A stretch of 64,000 nt of DNA, from NCBI GenBank assembly GCA_964016885.1, contig OZ024741.1:168454001-168518000 (forward strand), written 5' to 3'. Numbering within the stretch: position 1 is the stretch's first letter; every line of letters starts with the position of its first letter. Shown one piece after another: positions 1,384 through 48,066 of the stretch. Under the pieces are notes generated by a model. It was not told the DNA's origin, did not search any database, and was given only the letters and a program-made list of their open reading frames with translations. This DNA is from Eledone cirrhosa (Eukaryota). The translations under genes and the position numbers were made by a program.

Positions 1384-1401
1384 TATATATATGTGTGTGT
1401 G

Positions 1402-1457
<56 letters not shown>

Positions 1458-1521
1458 CATAGATATAAATACTTATATATCTATCTTATTACTGAAACAT
1501 CTAGAGAATTTATATATATGT

Positions 1522-1583
<62 letters not shown>

Positions 1584-1660
1584 ATGTGTGTGTACATATA
1601 TATAAATATATATTAAATATATATATATATATATATGTTTGTGTGTGTATACATATATCG
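1384..1660. repeat. compound (TA)n/(CA)n/(TG)n microsatellite
   Basis: Direct dinucleotide runs. The overlapping YIYI/HTHT/CVCV ORFs are translation artefacts. Confidence 0.95.
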
Positions 1661-1856
1661 ATCAACTCTCTAGAGGTTTTACTAATAAGATATAATTATA
1701 GTATTCTCGACTGGACACTAAATGAATTACCAAGAATATACAGTAAAACAAGAAAAAACGAAGACTACATTTAGAATACAGCACCAAGTATTTCACAGAT
1801 AAATCATATTTCCCAAGAATATATAGAATGTATTTCGTAATAAGAAAACTATTATA

Positions 1857-2428
1857 AACTAGTATTACCTGCTATATGACAGGTAATTTTCAGAGAATAT
1901 AATCGCCACTGTGGGTAACAGTGGGTACACACACCACACACACATATACACACACACGCGTGCGCACACACACACACATACACACAAACACAGACACACA
2001 CACACATATGTACAGAGAGAGAAAGAGAGAAACTAGAGTGAGAAGTCATTTGAGGAGTATACATTTGCCACTGTGGGTAACAGTAGGTACACACACACAG
2101 GCACACACAAACACGCATACACACACACACACTCACACACACATACACACACACACACACAGACACACACACACACACTCACACACAGACAGACAGACAG
2201 ACAAACACACACACAGACAGACACACACACACATACACACACATACACACACACACTCATACAGACAGACACACACACACAGACACACACATACACACTC
2301 ACACTCACACAGACACACACACACATTCTCTCTCCTCATATATATACAAGGGGAGAGAGAGAGAGAGACACTAGAGTGAGAAGTAATTTCAGGAGTATAC
2401 ATTTGCCATTGTGAGTAATGGTAGGTAA
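1857..2428. repeat. three ~60-bp units separated by (CA)n/(GA)n expansions
   Basis: actagagtgagaagt..gagtatacatttgcca(c/t)tgtg(g/a)gtaa recurs at ~2032 and ~2370, with a degenerate copy at ~1860-1930. Confidence 0.75.
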
Positions 2429-2467
2429 ATGCATAAAAAATGTGCAAATATATTAATATAAAATAAA

Positions 2468-4350: not shown

Positions 4351-5449
4351 ATTCACTAAAACAATACATTATATTGATTCCACTAAAACAATACATTATA
4401 TTGCTCATGTTCAAACATTACAAATATAGTTTTAAATACTCTTGAGAATAAGCTAAGCGAAGAATTTCAGAAATTAAATATTTTCTCAAATATATTCATT
4501 CCATTCATGAATGGAGAAAGGGTGGAAAAGAATAATTTTGTGGAAATGCTATATGTATTTAATATTGTGTCAGTAGACAATAATAACATGTGTATGTGTG
4601 GGTTTATGTGTGTTTGTGTGTGCATGCATATTCTCCAGTGTCTGCTTGTCTCTCTCTACTCTTCCAGTATTTACCTGCTAGTTTGGTCAGTATGTATACT
4701 CTTCTTTCAACCCATATGTTAATTTTCTCTGTATCTCTATTTTACTCAGTCTCACCCTCTTTCTCTATCTTCTCATGCATGATGACGTCTAAGTATAATA
4801 ATGAAAATTTACAGTAGAACTACAAAAAATCTGTGGACAACTAAAAAAATGATTATAAAACAAAATACAAAAATAGGAAAGCAATCATTTGACAAAACAT
4901 TGAGCAAATTTGAATATTGGAAGTATGTTAGCTTATTGTAAACTGCTACAATGAAAGTTTCATTATGAAATGGCTGAATAATTGGATATACAAACCCCTA
5001 GAAACAGAAAATAATGGACAAAGTTGCATGTGCGAATTGATCTCATACCTGCTGTATGCTTGACAGCTGCAATACTATAAGGCCTCAGGCATGGATGACA
5101 AACGTGAAAAAGGTCATCTGTGAGAATTGAACTCACATCTCTCTGGCATATGGCAGGTGCAAGTTCAATTCTTATAGGTGAATTTGTTCCACTTTTTACC
5201 ATCTCTAGTGATTTATGTACCCAACGTTTTCAACTATTTTATAGTTAAACATGCATTGTAGCAGCTAACATACCAAAATATAAAGATAGGATTTTCTATC
5301 TTCAAGAAAGCAACTAAATCCAAAATAGCGATTGAAGTAATGGGCATTTGTGAGGAGAAAGGAAATGGAACAACATATATTTTGGAAGAGCTCAAACCTA
5401 AGCTATACATGAAGTACAAAATACTATGTTATATGTGTATGTGTTGGAT

Positions 5450-5735
5450 CTCCATCAGTTTCAATGATGGGTGTTCCAGAGCAGCTTGTACCTGAAATTA
5501 GCATGCAAGTAACTGAGTGTTCTATAGGCACATGTACTTTTAATGTTGTTTTCATGAAGATTCAGTTTGACACAGTGTGATATGAGGTTGGCCTTTTGAA
5601 CTATAAGGAAAACTAATTTCTAGCTGAGTAGGTTGGATCATCAGGAATAAAGTATCTTGTTGAATGACATAACACACCAGGAATTGAACATGATCTGATA
5701 ATCATGGGTTGAACAGCCTTACCACTAAGCCATAC
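5450..5735 (-). mobile_element. tRNA-derived SINE family B, degenerate
   Basis: The reverse complement resembles the head and body of the copies at 9385 and 55249 (ggcttagtggtaaggc..., gtcattcaacaagatacttt). Confidence 0.55.
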
Positions 5736-5787
5736 ACTTTCGTGCTATGCTATACTGATGCAAAGAAAGGCCTCTATTTGGTCATTA

Positions 5788-5972
5788 GGTGGATTGGCAG
5801 TATCAGTAGAGGGTCGGACGCCATGCTTTCCAGTATAGTTACGTCCCTTTACGATCTGAGTTCAAATCGCGCCGAGGTTGACTTTGCCTTTCATCCTTAC
5901 GGGGTCGATAAAATAAAGTACCAGTAATGCACTGGATATTGCTGGCCTTGTGCCTAAAGTAGAAACAATTAT
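5788..5972 (+). mobile_element. tRNA-derived SINE family A (short form)
   Basis: A-box-like tggcagtatcagtag, B-box gagttcaaatc, core gcctttcatccttacggggtcgataaaataaagtaccag, end ggccttgtgcctaaagtagaaacaattatt. Confidence 0.9.
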
Positions 5973-6042
5973 TTTGCATTCAAGCACTGAACATAGAAGT
6001 AGATACAGATAAACTACAGCCCAGAGAGATAGAGATAGAAAG

Positions 6043-6088
<46 letters not shown>

Positions 6089-6229
6089 TATGTTATGGGA
6101 GGTAGCAATCAATAGCGAGATAGAATGAAAAATAGGTTTCTTGAGTATTTTAATTTAGGACTTCTAGTCCTATCATGAAAAAGCAGTGTGAAATAAATCA
6201 TTGAACTTAATGGTCTGGTGATATAGAGA

Positions 6230-6400
6230 TAAAGACCCCCTTGGCACCAGTGACGTTGCAACTCATTTCTACAGCTGAGTGAACTGGAGCAACGTTAAGT
6301 AAAGTGTCTTGCTCAAGAACACAACGCAAAACCCGGTCTGAGAATCGAACACACAACCTCACTATTGTAAGTCTGATGCTCTAACCAGTAAGCTATGCAT
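6230..6400 (-). mobile_element. SINE family B
   Basis: The reverse complement has a tRNA head (gcttactggttagagc..gttcgattctc) and gtgttcttgagcaagacacttt. Confidence 0.75.
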
Positions 6401-11713: not shown

Positions 11714-12203
11714 TGGCAGTATTGATAGAGCGTCAGACAACATGCTTCTGAGTTCAAATCTTGCTGAAGTTAGCTTTGCCTTTCATCCTTATGGGGTCGA
11801 AAGATAAAGTACCAGTAATGCACTAGGGTTGATTTAATCAACTTTCCCCTTCCCCAAACTTTTTGGCCTTGCGCCTAAATCAGAAACCAAGTGCAGTGGA
11901 TTGGCGCTATCAGTGGAGCAATGAACAACATGCTTTGTGGCATAGAGTTACAGCCCTTTACGTTCTGTGTTCAAATACTGTTAAGGTTAGTTTTGTCTTT
12001 CATCCTTACGGGGTCGATAAAATAAAGTACCAGTCACGCACTGGGGTCGATTTAATCGACTTTCCCCTTCCCCAAAATTGATGGCCTATATAAGAAACCA
12101 AGGGTAACTTTGCCTTTCATCCTTACGGGGTCGATAAAATAAAGTACCAGTAATTTACTGGGTAATTGCTGGCCTTGTGCCTAAAGTAGAAACAATTATT
12201 ATT
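11714..12203 (+). mobile_element. three tandem SINE family A copies (two long-form, one 3' fragment)
   Basis: The core tttcatccttacggggtcgataaaataaagtaccag occurs three times (~11780, ~11998, ~12115), each followed by agaaac(c/a)a. Confidence 0.85.
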
Positions 12204-12370
12204 ACTATTTTTATTTTTTTCATTATTGTTTCTGAGATATATGCCGAGTGTCTTACTGACACCTAGGGCAAATAAATTCACAGTGTGCTGTGGTAAGCCA
12301 GTTAATACAGCACATTGATTATAATTTAAAAAAAAAAAAATAAATAAAAGTTATTATTATTATTATTATT

Positions 12371-12762
12371 GTTCTTTGAGTCTCTGTCATTGATGTTATT
12401 TAACTGGAAAGTTTGTTGAAATGAATATACTGCACTTATGGCATTCCTACTGTTCAGATGTGATTTTAATACTCTCCGAATGTATTCAGATCTTATCAAT
12501 TCCTTCATTTTTTTGTTCTTGATGTCATCAGCCTCCAGAACACCTAAATATTTGTATCCTTCTTCAGTCTCAATTTCCTTTATCATCTCATCCGTTGGGA
12601 CCTGGATTCCGTTGCTTCAGCTCAATTTACCCCTCTTCATCACTAGGACTCCACACTTACTAATACCAAATTTCATACATATAACATTGCTGGACATTGC
12701 TTGACAGTGTCAACAAGCACATCCAACTCCTTCTCACTCTTCCCGAAGAGCTTAAGATCGTC

Positions 12763-12765
<3 letters not shown>
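12371..12765 (-). mobile_element. R4/Dong LINE fragment (family 1), 5'-truncated and internally deleted
   Basis: Minus-strand MDDLKLFGK..EEGYKYLGVLEADDI..NSRNAISAV is joined directly to the 3' UTR seen at 12804 and 41995. (TTA)n on both sides. Confidence 0.9.
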
Positions 12766-12796
<31 letters not shown>

Positions 12797-12803
12797 GTTA
12801 TTA

Positions 12804-15034
12804 CTCTTTGAGTCTCGGTCATTGATGTTAGTTAACTGGAAAGTTTGTTGAAATGAATATCAAGCCACTACCTGCAGCCTCAGATATTCAGGACGTATCA
12901 GAGGGTTCTTGCTGTTCCCAGCAAGCATGCCTTTTGAAGCGTTCCAAAAAGCGTGAAGGGGCCAATTTTCTTTAAGCATCCCTGGAAACTTTTTGAGATA
13001 GTCCCTAGTGCGCCTATGACAATCGGGATCACTTTGACTTCATGGCAGTTCCAAATCCTTTTTACCTCCCACTTTAAGTCTTGGTATCGGTTAATTTTCT
13101 CCCTCTCCTTCTCTTGCACTCTCGTGTCGAATGGGCAGGCTACATCCACAATCAGGCACGATCTTTTTTCTTTGTCCAAAACCACCAGGTCAGGTCTATT
13201 GTGTTCCAGTTTCTTGTCCGTCTGTATCCTAAAATCCCACAGCACCTTCACCTGATCGTTTTCTATCACCGACTCTGGCCTATGCTCATACCATTTCTCA
13301 GAATGTGGTAAATTGTTTACTTTGCACAGGTGCCAGTGGATCACCCTGCCCATCACATCATGTCTCCAGCCCTTATAGTGAGTCTGGGCTAGGTGTTTAC
13401 ACTCGGATACAATGTGAGCCACAGTCTCCTCTCTCTCTCCACAGATCCTGCACAGTGGACTAGCCTCCTCCTTGTAAATGTGGTGTTTCAACCACTTCGT
13501 TTTGAGGGCCTGCTCCTGCGCAGCCATTAACATTCCTTCTGTAGCCTTTTTAAGGTCTCCTCTTTTCAACCATTTCCATGTGTGTGGATCTCTAAATTCA
13601 GTTCTCTCAAAGAAGGTACTATGAAGGGATTTTTCCTGAAGGCTGCTCTTTCTCCTTGATGTTATTTCCTCCTTGGACATCCCCTGGCCTACTGTCCCCT
13701 CCTTCAGTACAGTTCTGAGCATTGGCTCCTTACTATCAGTCACGTATTTGTGTAGGTTGTTTTTCTCCATCTGAACACAATCCTCTATGCTGATAAGACC
13801 TCTTCCACCCTCAGATCTCCTTAAGTAGAGTCTATCGACATCACTCCTCTTGTGGAACATGTTGTAGATAGTCAATAGCTTCCTAGTCTTCCTATCCATT
13901 TCTTTTTGTTCAGCAACATTCCATCTCAGAATTCCTGCACTGTACCTAATAATAGACACAGCTCGGGAATTTACTGCACTTATGGCATTCCTACTGTTCA
14001 GATGTGAGTTTAATACGCTCCTTACTCTCCGAAGGTATTCAGTTCTTATCAATTCCTTCATCTTTTTGTTCTTGATGTCATCAGCCTCCAGAACGCCCAA
14101 ATACTTGTATCCTTCCTCAGAGTCAATTTCCTTTATCATCTCACCTGTTGGTATCTGGATTCCGTTACTTCTGCTCAACTTACCCCTCCTCATCACAATG
14201 ACTCCACACTTACTAATACCAAATTGCATACATATATCATTGCTGAAAATACGGACAGTGTCAACAAGCACATCCAACTCATTCTCACTCTTCCCGAAGA
14301 GCTTAAGATCGTCCATGAAGAGGAGGTGATTGATGGTAAGCCCTCCCTTTCCCAACTTGTATCCTGCTCTCACTTTTCGCAGTACACTGGTCAGGGGCAT
14401 CAGGGCAAGGACAAACAACAGAGGGGACAGACTATCTCCCTGGAAGATACCTCTCTTGACCTTCACGCTTCCCAAGGATTCTCCAGTTGATGTTAACTCT
14501 GTTTCCCAGGACTTCATACTTTTGCCCAACAACTGTCTGATGTTATCTGCCACTTTGAAGATCTCCAGGCTTTTGGTGATCCAAGAATGAGGCACCATGT
14601 CAAATGCCTTTTTGTAGTCTATCCATCCCATGGCAAGACCAGTGTGTCTCCTCTTGCAATTCCTCATTACCATCTTATCAATAAGTAACTGGTCCTTTGT
14701 ACCACGTGACTTCTTTTGGCATCCTTTCTGTTCGTCCGGTAACAAGTTGTTTGTGTGGAGGTGATGGTAGATTTCCTCAGACATAATGCTTGTCAACAGT
14801 TTCCACATTACGGACAGGCATGTGATAGGTCTATAGTTGGTAACATCATTACCCTTGATTCGGTCTTTCATTATCAGAACTGTGGTACCTTTTGTCAACC
14901 ACTCTGGTACCTCACCTGACATCAAGCAGTCATTGAACATGGTTGTCAGTTTCGGGTGGAGGGATGTTATATTCTTAATCCAATACCCCTGCACACCATC
15001 TGGGCCTGGTGATTTCCAGTTGGTTAGTTTTTTT
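12804..15034 (-). mobile_element. R4/Dong-clade RLE non-LTR retrotransposon (family 1), 5'-truncated, young
   Basis: Continuous RT plus CCHC plus PD-(D/E)xK endonuclease frame. The 3' UTR ends in (TAA)n in element orientation, the known Dong target. Confidence 0.93.
12898..15034 (-). CDS. reverse transcriptase - CCHC zinc finger - restriction-like endonuclease (Dong ORF, N-terminally truncated)
   Basis: NWKSPGPDG, NYRPITCL, DYKKAFD, GIFQGDSLSPLLF, LFMDDLKL, YKYLG, CRICG..ETVAHIVSEC, RHD, RPDLVV..DVACPFD. The stop is 6 codons early relative to the copy at 42072. The ORF-track N-terminus (MLLTMA) is antisense Tx1 sequence. Confidence 0.9.
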
Positions 15035-17871
15035 GGGGCCATCGTCAACAACAAGTGGTGGTTTGCTCTGAAAAGAGCGATATAGAATAGAGTCCATTAG
15101 GTTTAGTAAGGCTTTAGCAATAGAGAAAAATAGAGCAGAGGGAGAACTAGTTAGAAAATTAGACGAGGCGCTTAGCAAAGGCATCGCAACCGACGTACTT
15201 GCGGCGAAATTGGCCCTTGACCAATTCTTCAAAGCAAAGCACAAAGGCTGTGTTGTCAGAGCTAGGGTGCGTGCTCTCAGACACGAGGGGACGAAAGCCG
15301 TTCAATGGGCCCGAGTGGCAGAGGTGCGTCGTAGCAACAAAGCCACGATCCGGTCTTTGGTGGACCACGACGGGCGCATGCTACTCGATCTCTGGCAAAT
15401 GTGTGAAGCTTTTCAGCGACACTTCGCACAGCTGTACGGGGGCAGCGGCGGGCTGGATCGAAGGATGGACTTTAGTGTCTATCTCGAGGGACTGCTGCGG
15501 CTCTCGGCCACAAAGGCGGAGCGTTGCGAAAAGCCAATAACAGCCGCTGAAGTACGGGAGGCAATGACTGGCTGCCCAAGGGGTAAATCGCCTGGTTTGG
15601 TGGTCTGCCTTATGAACTTTACGTACAGATGCCAGACTTGTTCGGAGGCCTCTTGGCGGACGTCTACTGCAACTGGTAACAGAACGGGAGAATTCCCAGC
15701 TCTGTGAGCCGAGGAGCTGTGGTGCTGCTGAGAAAGGATCCGAACAAGGTGGATAACATAGATAATTTTAGGTCCATAACTCTGCTAAACACAGAGTTCA
15801 AGATTTTGGCCAAGGTGCTAGCAAAGAGGTTGGCGCTTGTCGTTGGTGGTCTGGTGGGAGAGGCGCAGACATGCGCTATTCCCGACAGATCCATCCATGA
15901 CAACCTCCACCTCATGCGATTCATCGTAGAGAGGGTAGCTAGGGAACCTGGCACGGGTGGGTCCTTGATCAATTTAGATCAGTCGAAAGCTTTCGATAGG
16001 GTCGACCATTGTTACCTAGCGGCAGTCCTGAAGGCGGCTGGCTTTGGGCTCGTCTTCAGAGGCTGGATCGCTGCCAGGCACAGTGACATCTGCTTTGTGG
16101 TGAGAGTGAACGGTCACCTTTCGGAACCGTTCAACATCATGCGCTCGGTCCGACAAGGATGTCCCCTCTCGTCCCTCTTGTACGTATTGACTCTCGAGCC
16201 ATTACTGCACAAACTGGAGACGTTGAGGGGCGTCCCGCGCGAACTAGGATGCGGAAGATCGTGTCAGCATATGCGGACGATGTCACCGTAGTGGTGTCGA
16301 ACGCCAAACACATCGAGGCGATCGGCACTACACTAAGAGAATACGAAGCGGTGACAGGAGCAATGATCAACCAGGAAAAGTCAGTGGGCCTGCAGTTCGG
16401 CACCTGGAGAGGCATGTCCATGCCGTCCAACAGCGTTGTCGGGCGCTGGACGACGGACAGATTAAATTGCTAGGGGTCTGGTTCGGTCCGGACCTCCAGA
16501 CGGACAAAAACTGGGATGAGGTAACGAGCAGGGTGGCTTCTCTCACCCAGAAATGGGCGCAGGGGAGGTGGCTAACGCGTACATCGCGCTCGTCATCTAC
16601 TACCGCCTGACCGTCGTACCTTGTCCTAAGCCCCGCCAGACTGCGCTGGAGCGTTTGCTCTTTCGCTTTTTGTGGAAGGGACGCGCTCCGATGGTCAGGC
16701 GGTTCATCTGCTGTCAACACCCGCTACGTGGAGGGCTGGGCATACCGTGGCTGATGATGCGCAGACACGCGCTCAGGCTACGACATCTCCACCTCTTCCT
16801 CGACGGTGCTCAGGTGTGGTCGCCGTTTGCTAGACGCGTCTTTCCACAGCTCGTCTCCTTTACGGAGCTGCAGTCCTGGGTCAAGCGAAGACCGAGAGGG
16901 AGCGCTTGGAGACTGGAATGTCTTCAGGCATTCACGCCCTCGGCAAATCGGGCAATGTGATCGGTGGAAACTCCACCTTGGCGTTCTATAGAGGATTAGT
17001 GGAGGGGAAGAGTGACGACGTACTTGGGGAAACTCTAGGCGTCGACAAAAATCAACTAGCCAATCTCTTCGGAAGAACTTTGGGGCCGGGGCCTATGGAC
17101 AACTTCCAGAAATCCCTGGCCTGGCAGTGCTACCGAGGAGCATTGCCAGTTCGGGATAAACTCTACAGGCATGGAGGTGCCGTCAGCCGGGCATGTCCGA
17201 GATGCGCGCAGGGCGACGAAACCGTCCTGCACGCACTCGTCCAGTGTCCGAGCGTTGCTGACTTGTGGGTTTATGTCGAACACCTGCTGTCGCGTGTAGG
17301 ACGGATCCAGCTATCAGCTGAGTCCATCGTGAGGATTGTCCCGCCCTCTTCCTTTAGCCGGGAAGGGCAGGCAGTTTTTATCTGTCTGGTGGCCATGGCA
17401 AACGTGATAGAATGGTGGATACGATTGAAAGGGCTGAAGACGAACACTTACCTCTTCGGTGATGCCCTGATTAACTTTTTCAAATTTCATTTGAAAAGGA
17501 AAATCAGGGTAGAGAGGGAAGTGCTCTCTTCCCAGCATTTTGTTGAAAGATGGGTGAGAGAGGCAAGAATGGCCCGAGTGAATGGGCCTACTCTGAGTAT
17601 GTGTTTGTAAATTAAAGGTGGAAAACTGGGAAAGGGCACTTGCCCTGGTGGTCAGGCTTACTGTGGCCTTTTAATGGGCTTTCTCCACAAATGTCCCTCG
17701 GAAGTCTCCCCCCTATTGGGGAATTTATCATTGTTATTTTTTTGTTACATCCTCTGTTTTTGTTTTTTTACACGCAGAAATACCCATTTGTACCGTCTTG
17801 TATTGTCCTGTACTGTCCTTAATGTCTACTTTATGTAAACCCTTGTGGTTAATAAAGAAAGCATTATTATT
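15035..17871 (+). mobile_element. L1/Tx1-clade LINE copy 1 (subfamily A), 5'-truncated, frameshifted
   Basis: GKSPG, NFRSITLLN, DQSKAFDRVDH, RQGCPLS, SAYADDV, CPRC..ETVLHALVQC. The 3' UTR ends ccttgtggttaataaagaaagc(att)n. Confidence 0.93.
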
Positions 17872-17976
17872 TGACTTTGCCTTTCATCCTTACGGGTTCG
17901 ATAAAATAAAGTACCAGTAATGCACTGGGTTATTGCTGGCCTTGTGCCTAAAGTAGAAACAATTATTATTATTATT
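17872..17976 (+). mobile_element. SINE family A 3' half with (ATT)n tail
   Basis: Core and terminus match family A. It directly follows the Tx1 tail. Confidence 0.9.
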
Positions 17977-19051: not shown

Positions 19052-20670
19052 CTTTCTTATTAACCACAAGGGTTTACATAAAGTAGACATTAAGGACAGT
19101 ACAGGACAATACAGGGCGATACAAATGGACATTTCTGCGTGTAAAAAACAAGAAACAGAGGATGTAATAATAGAACAATGAAAAAATTCTCCAATAGGGG
19201 GGAGACTTCCGAAGGACATTCGTGGAGAAAGCCCATTAAAAAGCCACAGTGACCCTGGCCACCAGGGCAAGTGCCCTCTCCCAGTTTTCCACCTTTAATT
19301 TACAGACACATACTCAGAGTAGGCCCATTCACTCGGGCCATACTTGCTTCTCTCACCCATCTTTCAACAAAATGCTGGGAAGAGAGCACTTCTCTCTCTA
19401 CCCTGATTTTCCTTTTCAAATGAAATTTGAAAAAGTTAATCAGGACATCACCGAAGAGTAAGTGCTCGTCTTCAGCCCTTTCAAACGTGTCCACCATACT
19501 ATCTCTTTCACCATGGCCACCAGACAGATAAAAACTGCCTGCCCTTCCCGGCTAAAGGAAGAAGGCGGGACAATCCTCACGATGGACTCAGCTGATAGCC
19601 GGATCCGTCCTACACGTGACAGCAGGTGTTCGACATAAACCCACAAGTCAGCAATGCTCGGACACTGGACGAGTACGTGCAGGACGGTTTCGTCGCCCTG
19701 CGCGCATCTCGGACATGCCCGGCTGACGGCACCTCCATGCCTGTAGAGTTTATCCCGAACTGGCAAAGCTCCTCGGTAGCACTGCCAGGCCAGGGATTTC
19801 TGGAAGTTGTCCATAGGCCCCAGCCCGAAAGTCCTTCTGAAGAGATTGGCTAGTTTATTTTCGTCGACGCCTAGAGTTTCTCCAAGTACGACATCTCGCT
19901 CTTCCCCTCCACTAATCCTCTATAGAACGCCAAGGTGGAGTTTCCACCGATCACATTGCCCGATTTGCCGAGGGCGTGAATGCCTGAAGACATTCCAGTC
20001 TCCAAGCGCTCCCTCTCGGTCTTCGCTTGAACCAGGACTGCAGCTCCGTAAAGGAGACGAGCTGGGGAAAGAGGCGTCTAGCAAACGGCGACCACACCTG
20101 AGCACCGTCGAGGAAGAGGTGGAGATGTCGTAGCTTGAACGCGTGTCTGCGCATCATCAGCCACGGTATGCCCACCCCTCCACGTAGCGTGTGTTAACAG
20201 CAGATGGACCGTCTGACCATCGGACCGCGTCCCTTCCACAAAAAGCGAAAGAGCAAACGCTCCAGCGCAGTCTGGCGGGGCTTAGGACAAGGTACGACGG
20301 TCAGGCGGTAGTAGATGACGGGCGCGATGTACGCGTTAGCCACCTCCGCTCGACCTTTCAGGGATAGCTTCCTCTGCGCCCATTTCTGGGTGAGAGAAGC
20401 CACCCTGCTCGTCACCTCGTCCCAGTTTTTGTCCGTCTGGAGGTCCGGACCGAACCAGACCCCTAGCAATTTAATCGGTCCGTCTGTCCAGCGCCGACGG
20501 TCCGCCTGTCCAGGTGCCGAGCTGCAGGCCCACTGACTTTCCCTGGTTGATCATTGCTCCAGTCACCGCTTCGTATTCTCTTAGTGTAGTGCCAATCGCC
20601 TCGATGTGTTTGGCGTTCGACACCATTACGGTGACATCGTCCGCATATGCTGACACGGATCTTCCGCATC
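19018..20670 (-). mobile_element. L1/Tx1 copy 2 (subfamily A), 5'-truncated
   Basis: Reverse-complement match to 16250-17870, from SAYADDV through CPRC and the 3' UTR. (AAT)n tail at 19018-19050. Confidence 0.93.
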
Positions 20671-38105: not shown

Positions 38106-39372
38106 GGGTCACTCATGACGAAAAACACACAAAAGCCCACGCCCACCCTGACCACCAAGGCAAGCAGCCTCTCTCAGTTTTCCCACTCCTCAGTCTACAG
38201 GCGCATACTCAGAGCAAGCCTATTCACTCGGACCAGACTTGCCACTTTCACCCACCTTTCAACAAACTTACTAGAAGACAGCACTTGCCTCTCCACCCTG
38301 ATTTTCCTCTTCAAGTGAAACCTGAAAAAGTTAATCAGGGAATAGCCGGAGAGGAAAGTGTCCCTCTTCAACCATTTTAACCTTATCTACCACACAATCT
38401 CTTTCACCATGGCCACCAGCCAGATGACAACTGCCTGTCCTTCCTCCTCTTTAAAGGAGGATGGCAGGACTATCTGCACAATGGACTCAGTCGATAACAG
38501 GATCTATCCTATATGTGACAGCAACTGTTCGACATAGCCCCACAAGTCAGCAATCCTCGGGCACTGAACAAGTGCATGCAGGACAGTTTCGTTGCCCTGC
38601 ACGTATCTTGGACAGACTCGGCTCACAGCACCTCCATGCCTATAGAGCTTATCCCGAGCCGGCAACACTCCTCAGTAGCACTGCCAGGCCAGGGATTTCT
38701 GGAAGTTGTCCATAGGCCCCGGGCTGGAAATTCTCTTGAAGAGAGAGAACAGCTGATCGTCTTCGACGCCCAGGGTCTCCCCGAGAACGTTGTCGCTCTT
38801 CCCCTCCACTAGCCCTCTATAGAACGCTGAGGTGGATGTTCCACCAATATCAGTGCCCAGCTGGTAGAGGGCGGTGAGCACTTGGTGACATTCCAGCTTC
38901 CAAGCACTATCCCTCGGTCTTTTCCTGATTCAGGACTGCAGCTCCGTCAAGGAGATGAGCTGGGGAATGTACGTCTGACAAGTGGCGACCACACCTGTTC
39001 ACCGTCAAGGAAGCACCAGAGATATCGCAGCCTCAGCACATGTTTGCGCATCGTCAGCCACAGCATACCCAGTCCTCCACGCAATGGGTGCTGACAGCAG
39101 ATGGATCATCTGATGATGGGAGCACGTCCCTTCCACAAAAAGCGGAAAAGAAGGCGCTCCATTTTGGTCAGAGTTGGGCGGGCAAGGTACGACGGTCAGG
39201 TGGTAGCAGATGACGTACATGATGTACGCATTCACCACCTCTTCCCGATCTTTCAGAGATAGCCTCCTCTCGGCCCATTTCTGGGTGAGAGAGGTCACCC
39301 TGCTTGTCACATCGTTCCAGTTTTTTCTCCATCTGGAGGTCCGGACTGAACCAGACCCAAGCAATTTAACCG
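38106..39372 (-). mobile_element. L1/Tx1 copy 3 (subfamily B), both ends truncated
   Basis: Reverse-complement match to 40355-41595 (LTALYQLGT..GVEDDQLF..MDNFQKSLAWQC). Confidence 0.9.
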
Positions 39373-39377
39373 ATGCA

Positions 39378-41787
39378 CGACGGACTGCCACAGGTCTCGA
39401 CGACCACAGTGCAGTGTTGCGAAAAACCGATAACAGCAGGTGAAATATGGGAAGCGATGTCTGACTGCACGAGGGGTAAATCACCAGGTTTGGATGGTTT
39501 GCCCTACGAGATTTATGCATATATGCCAAACTTGTTCTGAGACTTCTTGGCAGATGTCTACCGCAACTGGCAGCAAAACGGGAGCATTCCCAGTTTTGTG
39601 AGCCGGGGAGAGGTGGCGCTGCTGAGAAAAGACCCAAACAAGGGGGACGTTATAGACAACTTCAGGCCCATAACTCTGCTAAACGCAGAGTTTAAGATTT
39701 TGGTCGAGGTGTTAGCAAGGAGATTGGTGCTTGTCGTCGGTGATCTGGTAGGAGAGGCGTAAACATGCACTATTCCGGACAGATCCATCCACAACAACCT
39801 CCATCTCGTGCGATACATCATAGAGAGGGTGGTTAAGGAAACTGGCACGGGTGGGGCCCTGATCAACTTGGATCAATCTAAAGCATTTGATAGGGTCGAC
39901 CACCGGTACCTGGCTGCAGTCCTCGAAGCGGCCGGCTTCGGGCCCGTTGTTAGGGACTGGATTGCTGCGATGCACAGTGACATCTGCTCGATTGCGAGGG
40001 TGAATAGTCACCTGTCGCAACCTTTCGGCATCATGCACTCGGTCCACCAGCGTTGCCTCCTCTCGTCCCTCTTGTACGTACTGGCCCTCGAGCCGTTACT
40101 GCACATATTGGAGATGATGAGAGGGGTCCCATGCGAACTGGGATGCGGGAGACCCGTGTCAGCTTCCGCCGACGACGTCACTATGGTGGTGTCGAGCACC
40201 TAACACGTCTAGATGCATGGCACCGCTCTCAAGGAATATGAAGCGATGACAGGAGCAGAGATAAACAGGAAAAATCGTGGGGTTTGCAACTCGGCACCTG
40301 GAGAGGTAAGTCCATGCCATCCAACAGCATCGTGGGGAGCTGGACGGAAGGACCGGTTAAATTGCTCGGGGTCTGATTTGGTCCAGATCTCCAGATGAAG
40401 AAAAACTGGTGCGAGGTGACGAGCAGGGTAGCCTCTCTCACCCAGAAATGGGCTGAGAGGAGGCTGTCTCTGAAAGGTCGGGTGGAGGTGGCGAATGCGT
40501 ACATTGCGTCCGTCATCTGCTACCGCCTGACCGTCGTCCCTTTCCCTCGCCAAATCTGACCAAAATGGAGCGCCTTCTCTTCCGCTTTTTGTGGAAGGGA
40601 CGTGCTCCCATGGTAAGACGATCCAATTGCTGTCAACACCCGTTGCGTGGAGGACTAGGCATGCCGTGGCTGATGATGTGCAAACATGCACTGAGGCTGC
40701 GATATCTCTGGTGCTTCCTTGATGGTGAACAGGTGTGGTCGCCGTTTGCCAGACGTGCTTTTTACCAGCTCGTCTCCTTGACGGAACTGCAGACCCGGAT
40801 CAGGAAAAGACCGAGGGATAGCGCTTGGAAGTTGGAATGCCTCCAAGCGCTCACCGCCCTCTACCAGCTGGGCACTAGTATCGGTGAAACATCCACCTCG
40901 GCGTTCTATAGAGGGCTAGTGGAGGGAAAGAGCGACAACGTTCTCGGGAAGACTCTGGGCGTCGAAGACGATCAGCTGTTCGCTCTCTTCAAGAGAATTT
41001 TCAGACCGGGGCCTATGGACAACTTCCAGAAATCACTGGCCTGGCAGTGCTACCAGGGAGCGTTGCCGGTTCGGGATAAGCTCTACAGGCACGGAGGTGC
41101 TGTTAGCCGAGCCTGTCCGAGTTACGCGCAGGGCGACGAAACTGTCCTGCACACACTCATTCAGTGCCCGAGGATTGCTGACTTGTGGAGCTATGTCAAA
41201 CAGTTATCGACTGTGTCCATTGTGCAGATAGTCCTGCCATCATCCTTTAAAGAGGAGGAAGGGCAGGGAGTTGTCATCTGGCTGGTAGCCATGGCGAAAG
41301 AGATTGTGTATTGGACAAGGTTGAAAGGGTTGAAGACGGACACTTTCCTCTCCAGCCAATTCCTGATTAACTTTTTCAAGTTTCACTTGAAGAGGAAAAT
41401 CAGGGTGGAGAGGCAAGTGCTGTCTTCTAGTAAGTTTGTTGAAAGGTGGGTGAAAGTGGCGAGTCTGGTCCGAGTGCATGTGCCCTCTCTGAGTATGCGC
41501 CTGTAGACTGAGGAGTGTGAAAAATGAGAGTGGGCGCTTGCCCTGGTCGTCAGGATGGCCGTGCTATTTTGTATGGTTTTCATCACGAGTGACCCTCTGA
41601 GGTTTCCCCTTTCTAGGGGAATTTTTATTGTTTGAATTTTTTTTTGATTTCTAGCCCGATTTTGTTATAACCTGTTTACACGACCAAAACCCAGTTTATA
41701 TCGTCCTGTACTGTTCTGAGCCGTCTCTAATGTTTTTTCTTCATGTTAGCCCTTGTGGCCAATAAAGAAACCATTATTATTATTATT
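39378..41787 (+). mobile_element. L1/Tx1 copy 4 (subfamily B), 5'-truncated
   Basis: DGLPQVS..GKSPGLDGLPYE, NFRPITLLN, DQSKAFDRVDH, SASADDV. The end is ccttgtggccaataaagaaacc(att)n. Confidence 0.92.
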
Positions 41788-41793
41788 GTTAAA

Positions 41794-41994
41794 GGCGGTG
41801 GTTTGGCAGTATCAGTAGAGGGTCGGACGCCATGCTTAGACGCATAGAGTTACGGCCCTTGTCATTCTGAGTTTAAATCCCGCCGAGGTTAACTTTGCCT
41901 TTCATCCTTACGGGGTCGATTAAATAAAGTACCAGTAATGCACTGGGTATTTGCTGGCCTTGTGCCTAAAGTAGAAACAATTATTATTATTATT
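41794..41994 (+). mobile_element. SINE family A, full length, between Tx1 tail and Dong tail
   Basis: Complete head, core and terminus with (ATT)n. Confidence 0.93.
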
Positions 41995-42985
41995 GTTCTT
42001 TGAGTCTCAGTCATTGATGTTATTTAACTGGAAAGTTTGTTGAAATGAATATCAAGCCACTACCTGCAGCCTCAGATATTCAGGACGTACCGGAGGGTTC
42101 TTGCTGTTCCCAGCAAGCATGCCTTTTGAAGTGTTCCAAAAAGCGGGGCGGGACCAATTTTCTTTAACCATCCTTGGAAACTCTTTGAGATAGTACCTAG
42201 TGCGCCTATGACAATCGGGACTACTTTGACTTCATGGCAGTTCCAAATCCATTTAACCTCCAGCTTTAAGTCCTGGTATCGGTTAATTTTCTCTCTCTCC
42301 TTCTCTTGCACTCTCGTGTCGAGTGGGCAGGCCACATCCACAATCAGGCACGATCTTTTTTCTTTGTCCACAACCACCAGGTCAGGTCTATTGTGTTTCA
42401 GTTTCTTGTCCGTCTGTATCCTAAAATCCCGCAGCACCTTCATGTGATCGTTTTCCATCACCGACTCTGGCTTATGCTCATACCACTTCTCAGAATGTGG
42501 TAAATTGTTTACTTTTCATAGGTGCCAGTGGATCACCCTGCCCATCACATCATATCTCCAGCCTTTATAGTGAGTCTGGGCTAGGTGTTTACACTCGGAT
42601 ACAATGTCAGCCACAGTCTCCTCTCTCTCTCCACAGATCCTACACAGTGGGCTAGCCTCCTCCTTGTAAATATGGTGTTTCGGCCACTTCGTTTTGAGGG
42701 CCTGCTCTTGCGCAGCCATTAACATTCCTTCTGTAGCCTTTTTAAGGTCTCCTCTTTTCAACCAGTTCCATGTCTGTGGATCTCTAAATTCAGTTTTCTC
42801 AAAGAAGGCACTATGAAAGGATTTTTCATGAAGGTTGCTCTTTCTCCTTGTTATTTCCTCCTTGGACATCCCCTGGTCTATTGTCCTCTCCTTCAGTACA
42901 ATTCTGAGCATTGGCTCCCTACTATCAGTCACGTATTTGTGTAGGTTGTTTTTCTCCATCTGAACACAGTCCTCTATACTGATAA
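41995..42985 (-). mobile_element. R4/Dong LINE (family 1), 5'-truncated
   Basis: High identity to 12804-13795: CRICG CCHC and RPDLVV RLE, ending RYVLNI*. Confidence 0.93.
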
Positions 42986-44355
42986 CATAAAATCGCGCCG
43001 AGTGGAACGAGCATCCGAGTCCCAAATCCAAAAAGCTTTGGAACATGTGTGTGCAAAAAAACCCACATCGGACGTGGGCAGAAATATGGAACCGTGGACG
43101 TGTTCTTTGGAACACCACAGGAAGCCAGGGAACACTCCATGGTCCCATTAAGAAGTGACGACTTCACACTCGTCCCAAGCTATTGTGGTTAGAGACTCGT
43201 GAAGATCAGGGTTACCCACGTACCACCGGCCATCGAAATTCCTTGGCTAATGGCTGCCGTCCTCACCGGCATCGAGGCCAACACCAAGATAATCGAAATA
43301 GCGAAAGAAAAGCAGGAGAACTGGTCCGGATCTGGGATGGAGCTCCTGATCCAAGCGGACCAAAAAAGCAATGAGATCCCAGAGGTAATAGACCTCACTG
43401 ACGGCAACCACCTCACCGTAATCGTCGAGGGCAGAAGGTGTAGGTGTGTCGTTTGTGGTGAAGGAACCCACCTAAGGTCTTTCTGCCCTCAGGCTAAAAG
43501 GTTGAGGCCACCTCTCTTACCCACCCCAGTGACTCAACAATCAACACCACCAGCAGCAGAAATGGCAGCAACAACAGAAGCAACTGTAACAGCAACAACC
43601 ACAGCAACAGTAGCAAAACCAACACCACCACCACCCAACGCGCCAGAACTAGCACCAGCGCCTACACCACCCACCACGCCACAACCAAAACCGACGCCTG
43701 TGCAGGATTTTCCACTCCCCGACCTTTCGCAACTGGATACAGATTGTGACGAAGAGGAGTGGGAAACGGTATCAGGAAAAAAGAAAAAAAGTAAAAGAAG
43801 CCAAAAAAGAAAAAAAACTCTCTTCCCTCCCCCTCCAAAAACAAAATACAGAGGGAAACAAATAAACTATCAAACAAAAAAGTTAGGACAGCTATGCCAC
43901 CATCCACACCAGCATCACCAACCTCATCACCACAAACACCAACACCATCACCATCATTAACCCCAACACCCCTATCACCAACACCACAAAAGTCACCAAA
44001 AGGCCAAACAGAAACAAACCCACAACAAACGCAAACAAAACAAAACAACCAAAACGATACACACTACACAGCATTAAATTTGAACAACAACCAATTATTA
44101 CACTACATCCAACACAACACCAGCATCACAGAAAAAGCCTACACAACACCCCAAAAGTTCACACCACCTCCACACATACAAATCACTCGCATCACACAGA
44201 AAACGTACACGACACTAAAACAAAAAATCCCCAAAGACATCGGAGAATTCCGACAAGCACTCTCCAGGAGGATTTATAAGGACATCCTTCCGGAGGAGGC
44301 CACAAGCAGTGAAAAGGATGGAGAAACCATCCTTCCTCTACGAGAAGTAAGGTAA
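42986..44355 (+). pseudogene. Tx1 ORF1 (gag-like nucleic-acid-binding protein), disrupted
   Basis: CVVCGEGTHLRSFC is a CX2CX4HX4C knuckle. Pro/Thr-rich linker and EEEWETVSGKKKK basic motif. Split across frames, ending at 44355. Confidence 0.8.
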
Positions 44356-44389
44356 ATGGTCTTTCCCATCTTTTTCACTCCATTTCAAC

Positions 44390-47300
44390 ATGACCTCACT
44401 CAGAATAGGCAGCATAAATGCGCGTGGCTTGGGGTCGTCATGGAAGACGGGCCACCTGCTCAACGACCTCAGGTAACTAAACATAGATGTAGTGGCCATC
44501 AGCGAGACCAGAATCTCCGAGGCACGGGACTTCGCACCGATCTTCGGCGGCTACGATGTGTACGCATCTCCCAGCCGTCCTGGATCTGCGGAGGAGTTGC
44601 TGTGCTTTTTCGGAGAGGTTTGGATCTCGCCATACGGGCCATCATCCTGGACCCAGAGGGTAAGTTGGTGGTGCTGGACGTGACCAGCGGAGACGGGCAA
44701 GCTTTCAGGCTAGTGGCCGTCTATGCCCCGACAGGAGCAGGGAGGCCTGATTTCTTCCGGCGTCTGGAGACCTTTCTTGGAACGTCCTGCCCTTTAGTGT
44801 TAGTGGGCGACTGGAACGGGATCTTAGATGCACGCTGGGACTGTGTGGGATTAGCGGATAGGGGAGGAGGGTGCAAGAGCCTCACCAACCTGTTCAGGCG
44901 TTATGAACTGTCTGACAGGTACCGATTGGATTTCCCGAATGTGCCAATGTGGACTTGGACAAATCGCATAGGGTCATCCAGATCATATCTAGATAAAGTA
45001 TTTTGTAGGGAAATAGATAGGTCTAGCATAGGCTGTCCACAATTCAAGATAGTCAGCTACACGGACCACAAATTCGTGAACTGTGTGCTTGACTTAGATA
45101 GGCTTCATAGACGAGGACCAGGCTACTGGAAGCTAAACACGTCCTTACCAGCGCGCAAGGCCTACAGAGACCGGATTAGCGAACTAGTTAAGTGGGCGTT
45201 GACGGAGGCCATCGTCAACAACAAGTGGTGGTTTGCTCTGAAAAGAGCGATTAGAATAGAATCCATTAGGTTTAGTAAGGCTTTAGCAATAGAGAAAAAT
45301 AGAGCAGAGGGAGAACTAGTTAGAAAATTAGACGAGGCGCTTAGCAAAGGCATTGCGACCGACGTGCTTGCGGCGAAATTGGCCCTTGACCAATTCTTCA
45401 ATGCAAAGCACGAAGGCTGCGTTGTCAGAGCTAGGGTGCGTGCTCTCAGACACGAGGGGACGAAAGCCGTTCAATGGGCCCGAGTGGCGGAGGCGCGTCG
45501 TGGCAACAAAGCCACGATCCGGTCTTTGGTGGACCACGACGGGCGCATGCTACTCGATTCCGGGCAAATGTGTGAAGCTTTTCAGCGACACGTCACTCAG
45601 CTGTTCGGGGGCAGCGGTGGGCCGGGTCGAGGGATGGACTTTAGTGTCTACCTCGACGGACTGCCGCGGCTCTCGGCCACTGAGGCGGAGTGTTGCGAAA
45701 AGCCGATAACAGCCGCTGAAGTAAGGGAGGCAATGACTGGCTGCACAAAGGGTAAATCGCCTGGTTTGGATGGTCTGCCCTATGAACTTTACGTACAGAT
45801 GCCAGACTTGTTCGGAGGCCTCTTGGCGGAGGTCTACTGCAACTGGCAACAGAACGGTAGAATTCCCAGCTCTGTGAGTCGAGGAGCTGTGGCGCTGCTG
45901 AGAAAGGATCCGAAAAAGGGGGATAACATAGATAATTTCAGGTCCATAACTTTGCTAAAGACAGAGTTCAAGAGTTGGCCAAGGTGCTAGCAAAGAGGTT
46001 GGCGCTTGTCGTTGGTGGTCTGGTGGGAGAGGCGCAGCCCATTTGCCGTTCCCGACAGATTCATCCACGACAACCTCCACCTCATGCGATACATCGTAGA
46101 GAGGGTAGCTATGGAACCTGGCACGGTTGGGTCCTTGATCAATTTAGATCAGTCGAAATCTTTCGATAGAGTCGACCTTCGTTACCTAGCGGCAGTCCTG
46201 TGGGTGGCTGGCTTTGGGCCCGTCTTCAGAGCTGGATCGTTGCCATGCACAGCGACATCTGCTCTGTGGTGAGAGTGAACGGTCACCTTTCGGAACCGTT
46301 CAACATCATGCGCTCGGTCCACCAAGGATGTCCCCTCTCGTCCCTCTTGTACATATTGACTCTCGAGCCATTACTGCACAAACTGGAGGCGTTGAGGGGG
46401 ATCCCGCGCAAACTAGGATGCGGAAGATCCGTGTCAGCATATGCGGACGATGTCACCGTAGTGGTGTCGAACACCAAACACATCGAGGCGATCGGCACTA
46501 CACTAAGAGAATACGAAGCGGTGACAGAAGCAATGATCAACCAGGAAAAGTCATTGGGCCTGCAGCTCGGCACCTGGAGAGGCGACGCGGGGTGCTGGAC
46601 GGACAGAACGGTTAAATTGCTAGGGGTCTGGTTCCGTCCGGACCTCCAGACGGACAAAAACTGGGACGAGGTGACGAGCAGGGTGGCTTCTCTCACCCAG
46701 AAATGGGCGGAGAGGAAGCTATCCCTGAAAGGTCGAGCGGAGGTGGCTAACGCGTACATCGCGTCCATCATCTACTACCGCCTGACCATCGTACCTTGTC
46801 CTAAGCCCCGCCTGACAGCGCTGGGGCGTTTGCTGTTTCTCTTTTTGTGGAAGGGATGCGCTCCGATGGTCAGACGGTCCATCTGCTGTCAACACCCGCT
46901 ACGTGGAGGGATGGGCATGCCGTGGCTGATGATGCGCAGACACGCGCTCAGGCTACGACATCTCCACTTCTTCCTTGACGCTGATCAAGTGTGGTCGCCG
47001 TTTGCTGGACGCGTCTTTCCCCAGCTCGTCTCTTTGACGGCGCTGCAGTCCTGGGTCAAGCGAAGACCGAGAGGGAGCGCTTGGAGAATGGAATGTCTTC
47101 AGGCGCTCACAGCCCTCGACCAGTCGGGCAATGCGTTCGGTGGAAACTCCACCTCGGCGTTATATAGAGGATTAGTGGAGGGGAAGAGTAACGACGTACT
47201 TGGGGAAACTCTAGGCGTCGACGAAAATCAACCAGCCAATCTCTTCGGAAGAACTTTTGGGCCGAGGCCTATGGACAACTTCCAGAAATCCCTGGCCTTG

Positions 47301-47784
47301 CAGTGCTACTGAGGAGCTTTGCCAGTTCGGGATAAATTCTACATCATGGAGGTGTCGTCAGCCGGGCATGTCCCAGATGCGCGCAGGGCGACGAAACCGT
47401 CCTGCACGCACTCGTCCAGTGTCCGAGCATTGCTGACTTGTGGGTTTATGTCGAACACCTGCTGTCGCGTGTAGGACGGATCCAGCTATCAGCTGAGTCC
47501 ATCGTGAGGATTGCTCCGCCCTCTTCCTTTAGCCGGGAAGGGCAGGCAGTTTTATCTGTCTGGTGGCCATGGCGAAAGAGATAGTATGGTGGACACGTTT
47601 GAAAGGGCTGAAGACGAACACTTACCTCTTCGGTGATGCCCTGATTAACTTTTTCAAATTTCATTTGAAAAGGAAAATCAGAGTAGAGAGGGAAGTGCTC
47701 TCTTGCCAGCATTTTGTTGAAAGATGGGTGAGAGAGGCAAGAATGGCCCGAGTGAATGGGCCTACTCTGAGTATGTGTCTGTAA
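44390..47784 (+). pseudogene. Tx1 ORF2 (APE endonuclease + RT + C-terminal CCHC), frameshifted
   Basis: MTSLRIGSINARGL, AISET, GGVAVL, VYAP, VGDWN, WTW, YLDKVF, TDH (APE motifs). GKSPGLDGLPYE, YADDV. Confidence 0.88.
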
Positions 47785-48021
47785 ATTAAAGGTGGAAAAC
47801 TGGGAGAGGGCACTTGCCCTGGCGGTCAGGGTCATTGTGGATTTTTAATGGGCTTTCTCCACGAATGTTCCTCGGAAGTCTCCCCCGTACTGGAGAATTT
47901 TTCATTGTTATTTTTTTGTTACATCCTCTGTTTTTGTTTTTTACATGCAGAAATGCCCATTTGTACCGTCCTGCATTGTCCTTAATGTCTACTTTATGTA
48001 AACCCTTGTGGTTAATAAAGA

Positions 48022-48065
<44 letters not shown>

Positions 48066-48066
<1 letters not shown>

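What the first reader, a model, noticed from the sequence alone, without database searches (positions are those of the whole stretch)
41981..48065. Second, independent Dong(-)/Tx1(+) head-to-head fusion
Seen: the same architecture recurs 29 kb away with different breakpoints. Dong is cut at ..ctatactgataa| (42985) and Tx1 begins in ORF1 (cataaaatcgcg..). Again it is bounded by (TTA)n on both outer ends with none at the junction. The different breakpoints rule out segmental duplication of case 1. Both long young Dong-1 copies in the window are capped this way. Inference: this is a recurrent process rather than an accident.
Basis: partly seen in the sequence, partly recalled or inferred. Interest (0 to 1): 0.75.

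Follow-up and report, generated by a model that had tools for sequence, protein, structure and literature searches.

The report
Two repeat-seeking LINEs joined head-to-head
Two unrelated jumping genes that both land in (TAA)n repeats, always in opposite directions, sit head-to-head here with no repeat left between them, and the missing repeat was likely lost by an ordinary deletion, not by a special coupled insertion.

Summary
An antisense 989-bp 3' piece of a Dong-like LINE (41997-42985) abuts a sense Tx1/L1-like LINE that lacks its first 768 bp (42986-48024). (ATT)5 and (TAT)14 lie outside and no repeat lies at the joint. The joint is unique in the 3.0-Gb genome, as is the joint of case 1, so neither is a duplication or an amplified composite.

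Recurrence comes from target sharing. Dong and the Tx1-like LINE (with its SINE) insert into the same (TAA)n tracts with fixed, opposite polarity: 36 of 37 neighbour pairs are antisense.
- Head-to-head neighbours (10 of 39) are no commoner than tail-to-tail neighbours (16 of 39).
- Of 66 resolved Dong 5' ends, 47 abut plain (AAT)n.
- Direct Dong/Tx1-or-SINE joints number 5-6 of 76, against 4.9-6.1 expected by chance.
- Direct tail-to-tail joints with both 3' ends missing, which reverse transcription cannot make, are as frequent (3 of 39). Deletions across these tracts are therefore common enough to explain the fusions.

Best reading: sequential insertions, then loss of the spacer. Two-element twin priming is not excluded. 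No read support for the joint was obtained. Interest is low to moderate.

The parts
41795..41979 (+). 185-bp SINE, full length, bounding the left repeat remnant. Same orientation as Tx1. Its last ~28 nt resemble the Tx1 3' tail.
41980..41994 (.). (ATT)5, the left outer remnant of the target microsatellite, next to the Dong 3' end
41997..42985 (-). Dong-like LINE with restriction-like endonuclease motifs: the 3'-terminal 989 bp (positions 2956-3941 of a 3941-bp copy), 5'-truncated
   Evidence: The family's long open frame has RT, CCHC and RPD..D..K motifs and its best solved relatives are R2 proteins.
42983..42985 (.). TAA shared by both parent sequences at the joint (3-nt microhomology); no microsatellite here
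   Evidence: Other copies continue with the usual Dong sequence past 42985 (loose ends).
42986..48024 (+). Tx1/L1-like APE-type LINE, positions 769-5807 of 5807. It starts inside ORF1, and its frames are broken in several places.
44356..45990 (+). ORF2 fragment with the APE endonuclease domain (Exo_endo_phos)
46170..47312 (+). ORF2 fragment with the reverse transcriptase domain (RVT_1)
48025..48066 (.). (TAT)14, the right outer part of the target microsatellite, next to the Tx1 3' end
12804..15034 (-). Case 1: Dong-like copy, 3'-terminal ~2.23 kb, preceded by (ATT)13 at 12764-12803
15035..17872 (+). Case 1: Tx1-like copy from about position 2990 to its 3' end. A 5'-truncated SINE (17873-17961) and (ATT)5 follow.

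Best explanation
Two LINE families that insert into the same (TAA)n tracts with fixed, opposite polarity each landed in one tract here. The repeat between their 5' ends, with part of one or both elements, was likely removed by a deletion, either when the second element's truncated 5' end was joined or later.

Shown:
- Both families are (TAA)n-specific and antisense to each other.
- Head-to-head and tail-to-tail neighbours are both common.
- Most 5' ends keep the repeat.
- Joints without repeat occur with any kind of neighbour, at the product of the two separate frequencies.
- Deletions across these tracts occur.

Inferred: that this particular joint arose by such a deletion, and the order of the two insertions.
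For: Polarity. Within 150 bp of 39 sampled Dong copies, 26 of 27 Tx1/SINE neighbours are antisense to Dong. Beside 39 sampled Tx1 copies, 10 of 10 Dong neighbours are antisense (binomial p=6e-10).

No 5'-5' excess. Tx1/SINE lies at the Dong 5' side in 10 of 39 and at the 3' side in 16 of 39. Dong lies at the Tx1 5' side in 4 of 39 and at the 3' side in 6 of 39.

Tally of 76 independent Dong copies (my reading):
- 47 abut (AAT)n.
- 19 have no (AAT)n; 3 of these abut (GAA)n only.
- 10 are unresolved.
- A Tx1/SINE neighbour is present in 12 of the 47 and in 5-6 of the 19 (p=0.76-0.77).
- Expected direct fusions are 4.9-6.1; observed are 5-6.

Direct joints go with a truncated partner: 8 of 9, against 4 of 26 pairs that keep a spacer (p=1.6e-4). 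This excludes a spacer that merely happened to be zero units long and fits a deletion reaching into the partner.

Deletion control. 8 of 39 Dong copies lack their 3' end and tail. In 3 of the 39 (L003, L020, L034) the cut 3' end abuts a Tx1 that also lacks its 3' end, with no repeat between. Target-primed reverse transcription starts at 3' ends and cannot make such joints.

The window itself shows similar damage: a Tx1 copy cut at its 3' end (38106) and a Dong copy with an internal ~1.1-kb gap.

The joints carry 3-nt and 2-nt microhomology.
Against: No intermediate was seen, such as an allele or paralogue with the spacer still present or with only one of the two elements.

Private-substitution loads of the two halves are equal, which co-insertion also predicts. 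Case 1: 13 of 2229 against 19 of 2835. Case 2: 8 of 989 against 27 of 2818.

If the partners were once full length, the deletions were large: at least 768 bp of Tx1 here and about 3 kb in case 1.

The samples are small, consist of the best-scoring 40 hits per search, and were classified by hand. One of the direct joints (L105) rests on a weak match.
Confidence: 0.65

Rival explanations
1. Two-element twin priming. A staggered break made in the (TAA)n tract by one element would expose two 3' ends, one complementary to the Dong RNA tail and one to the Tx1 RNA tail. Both would prime reverse transcription at once, and the two incomplete cDNAs would be joined by microhomology. The result would be one head-to-head insertion with no repeat inside.
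For: The geometry fits exactly. The sense strand of Dong is followed by (TAA)n and that of Tx1 by (TTA)n, so each exposed 3' end is the other element's natural primer. Both partners are 5'-truncated in 8 of 9 direct joints. The joints show 2-3 nt of microhomology. The two halves carry equal private-substitution loads. Both families have copies with long open frames.
Against: Direct 5'-5' joints show no excess over expectation (5-6 observed, 4.9-6.1 expected). 13-14 of the 19 Dong 5' ends without repeat have no Tx1/SINE partner at all. None of the 9 truncated Tx1 copies without repeat abuts Dong. Direct 3'-3' joints, which this model cannot make, are as frequent: 3 of 39 against 3 of 39 in the same sample.
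Confidence: 0.22
2. Assembly artefact: two repeats wrongly joined.
For: No read or contig bridging 42985/42986 was obtained. The public contigs laid were 40-100 nt pieces of repeats.
Against: The joint links unrelated sequences at internal positions that share only 3 nt. Assemblers misjoin at long shared repeats. The locus lies in a 416-Mb contig with no N in the stretches read. Comparable joints occur at six or seven other loci.
Confidence: 0.04
3. An amplified composite element, or a segmental duplicate of case 1.
For: The same two families and the same orientation occur 29 kb apart. The Tx1 copies in the window share rare variants.
Against: Both joints are unique among the 40 scored hits of each search. 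The breakpoints differ. The two Dong halves are 94% alike, while each has closer relatives elsewhere (96-98%). The flanks differ.
Confidence: 0.01

Closest known systems
Dong, the (TAA)n-specific LINE of Bombyx mori, Anopheles gambiae and Biomphalaria glabrata (listed in PMC3812793, passages read; its placement in the R4 clade is recalled)
   Same: One long open frame with RT. There is no APE domain, and CCHC and RPD..D..K motifs lie downstream of the RT. The best solved relatives are R2 proteins. The 3' end is always followed by (TAA)n.
   Different: RT phylogeny against the named Dong elements was not done. This family is about 3.9 kb long, has at least 2253 matches in the genome, and often forms tandem arrays.
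Target-specific Tx1-clade LINEs (Xenopus Tx1L; Kibi in (TC)n and Koshi in (TTC)n, as listed in PMC3812793, where they are given only as APE-type elements; their Tx1-clade placement is recalled)
   Same: Two ORFs. ORF2 has APE, RT and a zinc-binding domain. It aligns with human L1 ORF2p across the endonuclease and RT. One relative is named 'Transposon TX1 149 kDa protein' by its source. Microsatellite specificity is strict: 23 of 23 full-length copies are flanked by (ATT)n.
   Different: The target is (TTA)n, which is not among the APE-type targets listed in the passages I read. Clade membership was not tested by phylogeny. It has a partner SINE with a similar 3' tail.
TRAS and SART in the (TTAGG)n telomeric repeats of Bombyx mori (PMC7265360, passages read)
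   Same: Two LINE families use one simple repeat as target and insert in opposite directions by nicking opposite strands.
   Different: TRAS and SART are both APE-type. Here one partner carries restriction-like endonuclease motifs and the other is APE-type, and the target is a dispersed trinucleotide microsatellite.
L1 twin priming and L1 target-site deletions (recalled from the L1 literature; the preprint 10.1101/2024.08.27.596794 on synchronous L1 events was seen only as a search listing)
   Same: Head-to-head geometry, 5' truncation, and microhomology at the inner joint. Loss of target DNA at the 5' joint of truncated copies.
   Different: Classical twin priming inverts part of one RNA. Here the two arms are unrelated elements, and a single event is not shown.

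Membership tests
Dong-like LINE with restriction-like endonuclease (R4 clade) | Single long ORF with reverse transcriptase and no APE endonuclease | tested here: met
   A 1072-aa open frame in L010 has RVT_1 (E=1.5e-22) and no Exo_endo_phos hit.
Dong-like LINE with restriction-like endonuclease (R4 clade) | C-terminal CCHC motif followed by a PD-(D/E)XK restriction-like endonuclease | tested here: met
   CRICGEREETVAHIVSEC and RPDLVV..IVDVA..K were read by eye in the translation. The motif definition is recalled. No profile or fold test was run.
Dong-like LINE with restriction-like endonuclease (R4 clade) | Insertion into (TAA)n with the 3' end next to the repeat | tested here: met
Dong-like LINE with restriction-like endonuclease (R4 clade) | RT phylogeny groups it with Dong/R4 rather than R2 or others | not tested
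   Only a ranking of solved structures is available: R2 proteins at E=3e-29 against L1 ORF2p at 7e-14. No reference Dong sequence was at hand.
Tx1 clade (L1 group) | ORF1 plus an ORF2 with APE, RT and a C-terminal zinc-binding domain | tested here: met
   L073 has a 701-aa ORF1 and a 1204-aa ORF2 with Exo_endo_phos, RVT_1 and zf-RVT. It aligns to human L1 ORF2p over residues 69-920 (E=1e-52).
Tx1 clade (L1 group) | RT phylogeny groups it with Xenopus Tx1L | tested here: inconclusive
   The only lead is one relative at 32% identity whose source names it 'Transposon TX1 uncharacterized 149 kDa protein'. No tree was built.
Tx1 clade (L1 group) | Sequence-specific insertion | tested here: met
   23 of 23 full-length copies have (ATT)n at the 5' joint, and the 3' ends are followed by (ATT)n.
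Twin-priming product | The two arms come from one insertion event (classically one RNA, non-overlapping segments) | tested here: not met
   The arms are two unrelated elements. Whether they arrived in one event is undecided; their ages are equal within error.
Twin-priming product | Microhomology at the inner joint | tested here: met
   TAA (3 nt) in case 2 and GG (2 nt) in case 1. End joining after a deletion would also give this.
Twin-priming product | One target-site duplication around the whole pair | not testable with these tools
   Both flanks are the same trinucleotide repeat, so a duplication cannot be recognised.
Pair of LINE families sharing one repeat target in opposite orientation (TRAS/SART-like) | Same repeat, fixed opposite polarity | tested here: met
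   36 of 37 neighbour pairs are antisense.

The most novel reading that the evidence does not exclude
The break that one (TAA)n-specific LINE makes hands the other family a ready-made primer. Dong and Tx1 can then integrate together in one two-RNA twin-priming event, a form of cooperation or hijacking between unrelated retrotransposons with different endonucleases.
Probability: 0.2. Interest if true: 0.7.

Novelty: new member of a known kind. Interest (0 to 1): 0.3.

Why it matters
The fusion looks like the ordinary outcome of two target-specific LINE families crowding the same microsatellites, followed by loss of the repeat between them. What is worth keeping:
- This genome holds a pair of families, one R2-like with restriction-like endonuclease motifs and one APE-type with a partner SINE, that use (TAA)n with strict opposite polarity. 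This parallels TRAS and SART on telomeric repeats.
- Full-length Tx1 copies always keep the repeat at their 5' joint, while truncated copies often do not. This bears on how 5' ends of such elements are joined.
- If the coupled-insertion reading were true, it would show cross-family use of integration intermediates.

Tried and rejected
**Read support for the joint.** One run search and one laying of four runs on 42286-43685 gave only 40-100-nt contig pieces of the repeats. None was shown to bridge 42985/42986. A narrower laying on 42936-43035 did not complete eight times. The joint therefore remains without independent read support.

**Age test.** Counts of private substitutions against 60-85 sampled copies do not differ between the halves in either case. 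A first run without the window's own copies suggested that the Tx1 of case 1 was older (54 against 15 private differences). That gap disappeared once the window's related Tx1 copies were included. For another direct pair (L020), the best genome-wide identities were 95% for the Tx1 half and 97% for the Dong half, which is not decisive.

**Zero-length spacer by chance.** Rejected, because direct joints go with a truncated partner (8 of 9 against 4 of 26).

**One element inserted inside the other.** Rejected. No remainder of Tx1 lies left of the Dong 3' end, and no Dong lies right of the Tx1 3' end.

**Other.**
- The search of earlier findings returned nothing.
- tRNA search on the SINE: no gene called.
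- Five of the Dong 5' flanks without repeat (L021, L031, L036, L038, L088) and several Tx1 flanks matched none of my reference copies.

Full report
**What is there**

The window is part of a 416-Mb contig of a 3.0-Gb animal genome. Between 41980 and 48066 the + strand reads as follows:
- (ATT)5;
- the last 989 bp of a Dong-like LINE in antisense (41997-42985);
- directly after it, a Tx1/L1-like LINE in sense that lacks its first 768 bp (42986-48024);
- (TAT)14.

No trinucleotide repeat lies at the inner joint. Other Dong copies continue ...ctgataa-GACCTCTTCC, and other Tx1 copies read ...gattaa-CATAAAATCG. The parents therefore share only TAA at the joint.

Case 1, 29 kb upstream, has the same layout with other breakpoints. 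Dong is kept to about 15034 (position 1736 of 3941). Tx1 starts at about position 2990. The shared bases are GG.

A 200-bp query across each joint finds only the window's own place spanning it. The other 39 scored hits of each search cover one half only (2253 and 194 first-look candidates). The two Dong halves are 94% alike and each has closer relatives elsewhere. The observation and the claim of independence both stand.

**What the two elements are**

*Dong-like family.* Its full length is 3941 bp (copy in L001). One copy carries a 1072-aa open frame (L010) with RVT_1 and no APE domain. Downstream of the RT lie a CX2CX7HX4C motif and RPD..D..K, read by eye. Its best solved relatives are R2 proteins (E=3e-29), ahead of L1 ORF2p (7e-14). 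Its sense strand is always followed by (TAA)n.

*Tx1-like family.* It comes in at least two younger forms (5.8 and 6.0 kb) and older subfamilies. One copy (L073) has a 701-aa ORF1 and a 1204-aa ORF2 with Exo_endo_phos, RVT_1 and zf-RVT. ORF2 aligns to human L1 ORF2p over endonuclease and RT (E=1e-52). One relative at 32% identity is named 'Transposon TX1 149 kDa protein' by its source. That is a lead, not a clade test. Its sense strand is followed by (TTA)n.

*SINE.* A 185-bp SINE shares the last ~28 nt of the Tx1 tail and sits in the same repeats in the Tx1 orientation.

**Why the architecture recurs**

I sampled three sets from the genome:
- 39 Dong copies around the hits;
- 39 Tx1 copies around the hits;
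- 38 further Dong copies around the hits.

I annotated each locus against real full-length copies. Each sample is the 40 best-scoring hits of its search. One hit was dropped because it duplicated L038. L016 and L017 were counted once, as were L064 and L065.

Within 150 bp, 26 of 27 Tx1/SINE neighbours of Dong are antisense to it, and 10 of 10 Dong neighbours of Tx1 are antisense. The two families therefore use opposite strands of the same tract. Only head-to-head or tail-to-tail arrangements are possible.

Head-to-head is not favoured. Tx1/SINE lies at the Dong 5' side in 10 of 39 and at the 3' side in 16 of 39. Dong lies at the Tx1 5' side in 4 of 39 and at the 3' side in 6 of 39.

I classified 76 independent Dong copies by hand:

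| 5' end of Dong copy | Copies | With an antisense Tx1/SINE neighbour |
|---|---|---|
| Abuts (AAT)n | 47 | 12 |
| No (AAT)n (3 of these abut (GAA)n only) | 19 | 5-6 |
| Unresolved (divergent 5' region) | 10 | not counted |

- Among the 19 without (AAT)n, the neighbour is a 5'-truncated antisense Tx1 or SINE in L003, L018, L020, L082 and L105 (weak match). In L037 it is a nearly complete SINE.
- The two neighbour shares do not differ (p=0.76-0.77).
- The expected number of direct fusions is 4.9-6.1. The observed number is 5-6.
- None of the 9 truncated Tx1 copies that lack the repeat at their 5' joint abuts Dong.

**What makes the repeat-free joints**

They are not just spacers of zero length. 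The partner is truncated in 8 of 9 direct joints, against 4 of 26 pairs that keep a spacer (p=1.6e-4). Both a deletion reaching into the partner and a two-RNA twin-priming event predict this.

The control that separates the two models is the tail-to-tail joint.
- 8 of 39 Dong copies lack their 3' end and tail.
- In 3 of the 39 (L003, L020, L034) the cut 3' end abuts a Tx1 that also lacks its 3' end, with no repeat between them.
- Reverse transcription starts at 3' ends, so only deletion can make such joints.
- They are as frequent as direct head-to-head joints in the same sample (3 of 39).

The window shows the same kind of damage: a Tx1 copy cut at its 3' end without any repeat (38106) and a Dong copy with an internal gap. 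Same-orientation joints without repeat also occur (Dong-Dong in L029, Tx1-Tx1 in L068, SINE-Tx1 in L045 and L058).

A single process accounts for all these classes: loss of the tract with adjoining sequence, either at the joining of a truncated 5' end or later.

**What stays open**

Private-substitution loads are equal in the two halves of both cases (13 of 2229 against 19 of 2835; 8 of 989 against 27 of 2818). Both models allow this.

The two-element twin-priming idea is mechanistically neat, because each exposed 3' end of a break in the tract matches the other family's RNA tail. Nothing excludes it for this locus. The counts give it no support either.

I could not get reads or contigs that bridge the joint. 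A misjoin between unrelated sequences that share 3 nt is unlikely but not ruled out.

**Comparison and verdict**

Dong is a known (TAA)n-specific LINE (PMC3812793, passages read). Microsatellite-specific APE-type families such as Kibi and Koshi are known for other repeats (same source; their Tx1-clade placement is recalled). TRAS and SART are a known pair inserting in opposite directions into one repeat (PMC7265360, passages read).

I saw no (TTA)n-specific APE-type family in those passages or in my searches. I did not search Repbase, so I do not claim it is unpublished.

The fusion is real, independent of case 1 and part of a recurrent pattern. The pattern is explained by target sharing with opposite polarity plus frequent loss of the tract. 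Interest is low to moderate. The families are new members of known kinds.

Noticed in passing
window 38106-39372 (-) and 39378-41790 (+): Two copies of an older Tx1 subfamily lie head-to-head with a 5-nt spacer. The arms overlap in element coordinates (about 4611-5836 and 3631-6041) and are about 90% alike. The left arm lacks its last ~200 bp and has no (TAA)n flank. This is neither a classical twin-priming inversion nor a simple hairpin.
   Followed up: partly
window 41795-41979, 17873-17961, 12150-12194 and many loci: A 185-bp SINE always lies in the Tx1 orientation inside (ATT)n. Its last ~28 nt resemble the Tx1 3' tail (alignment A1), so it is likely mobilised by the Tx1 machinery. ARAGORN calls no tRNA in it.
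   Followed up: partly
L048, L056, L072, L076 (Tx1 position ~1851): Four full-length Tx1 copies carry a SINE at the same internal position. The insert seems to have been propagated as part of the element.
   Followed up: no
L045 (~6090-6240) and L058 (~3960-4027), oriented coordinates: Same-orientation chimeras: the 5' part of a SINE is joined to the 3' part of a Tx1 without any repeat. This is what a template switch from Tx1 RNA to SINE RNA, or a deletion, would give. Similar cases are Dong-Dong (L029) and Tx1-Tx1 (L068).
   Followed up: no
L022, L087, L092, L096, L114 (Dong 5' joints): (GAA)n lies instead of, or directly after, (AAT)n at five Dong 5' ends. This is unexplained. It may reflect another repeat-specific element or added repeats.
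   Followed up: no
L050 1-1247 (oriented); L027, L032, L052, L087, L102, L110: A third repeated element ends ...gataaatgcaactgt next to (AAT)n beside Dong copies. It overlaps an 839-aa open frame in L027. It may be another (TAA)n-associated element.
   Followed up: no
Tx1-centred loci L040-L078: All 23 full-length Tx1 copies have (ATT)n at the 5' joint, but only 6 of 15 truncated copies do (p=3e-5). This suggests that full-length and truncated cDNAs are joined in different ways.
   Followed up: partly
window 15035-17872, 19052-20670, 42986-48024: The three younger Tx1 copies in the window share rare variants. The private differences of the first fall from 54 to 19 when the window's own copies are added to the comparison. 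This hints at local sources or gene conversion.
   Followed up: no
window 12368-12765 (-): A short Dong copy has its 3'-terminal ~55 bp joined to an internal segment, a gap of about 1.1 kb. Its 5' end abuts (ATT)13.
   Followed up: partly
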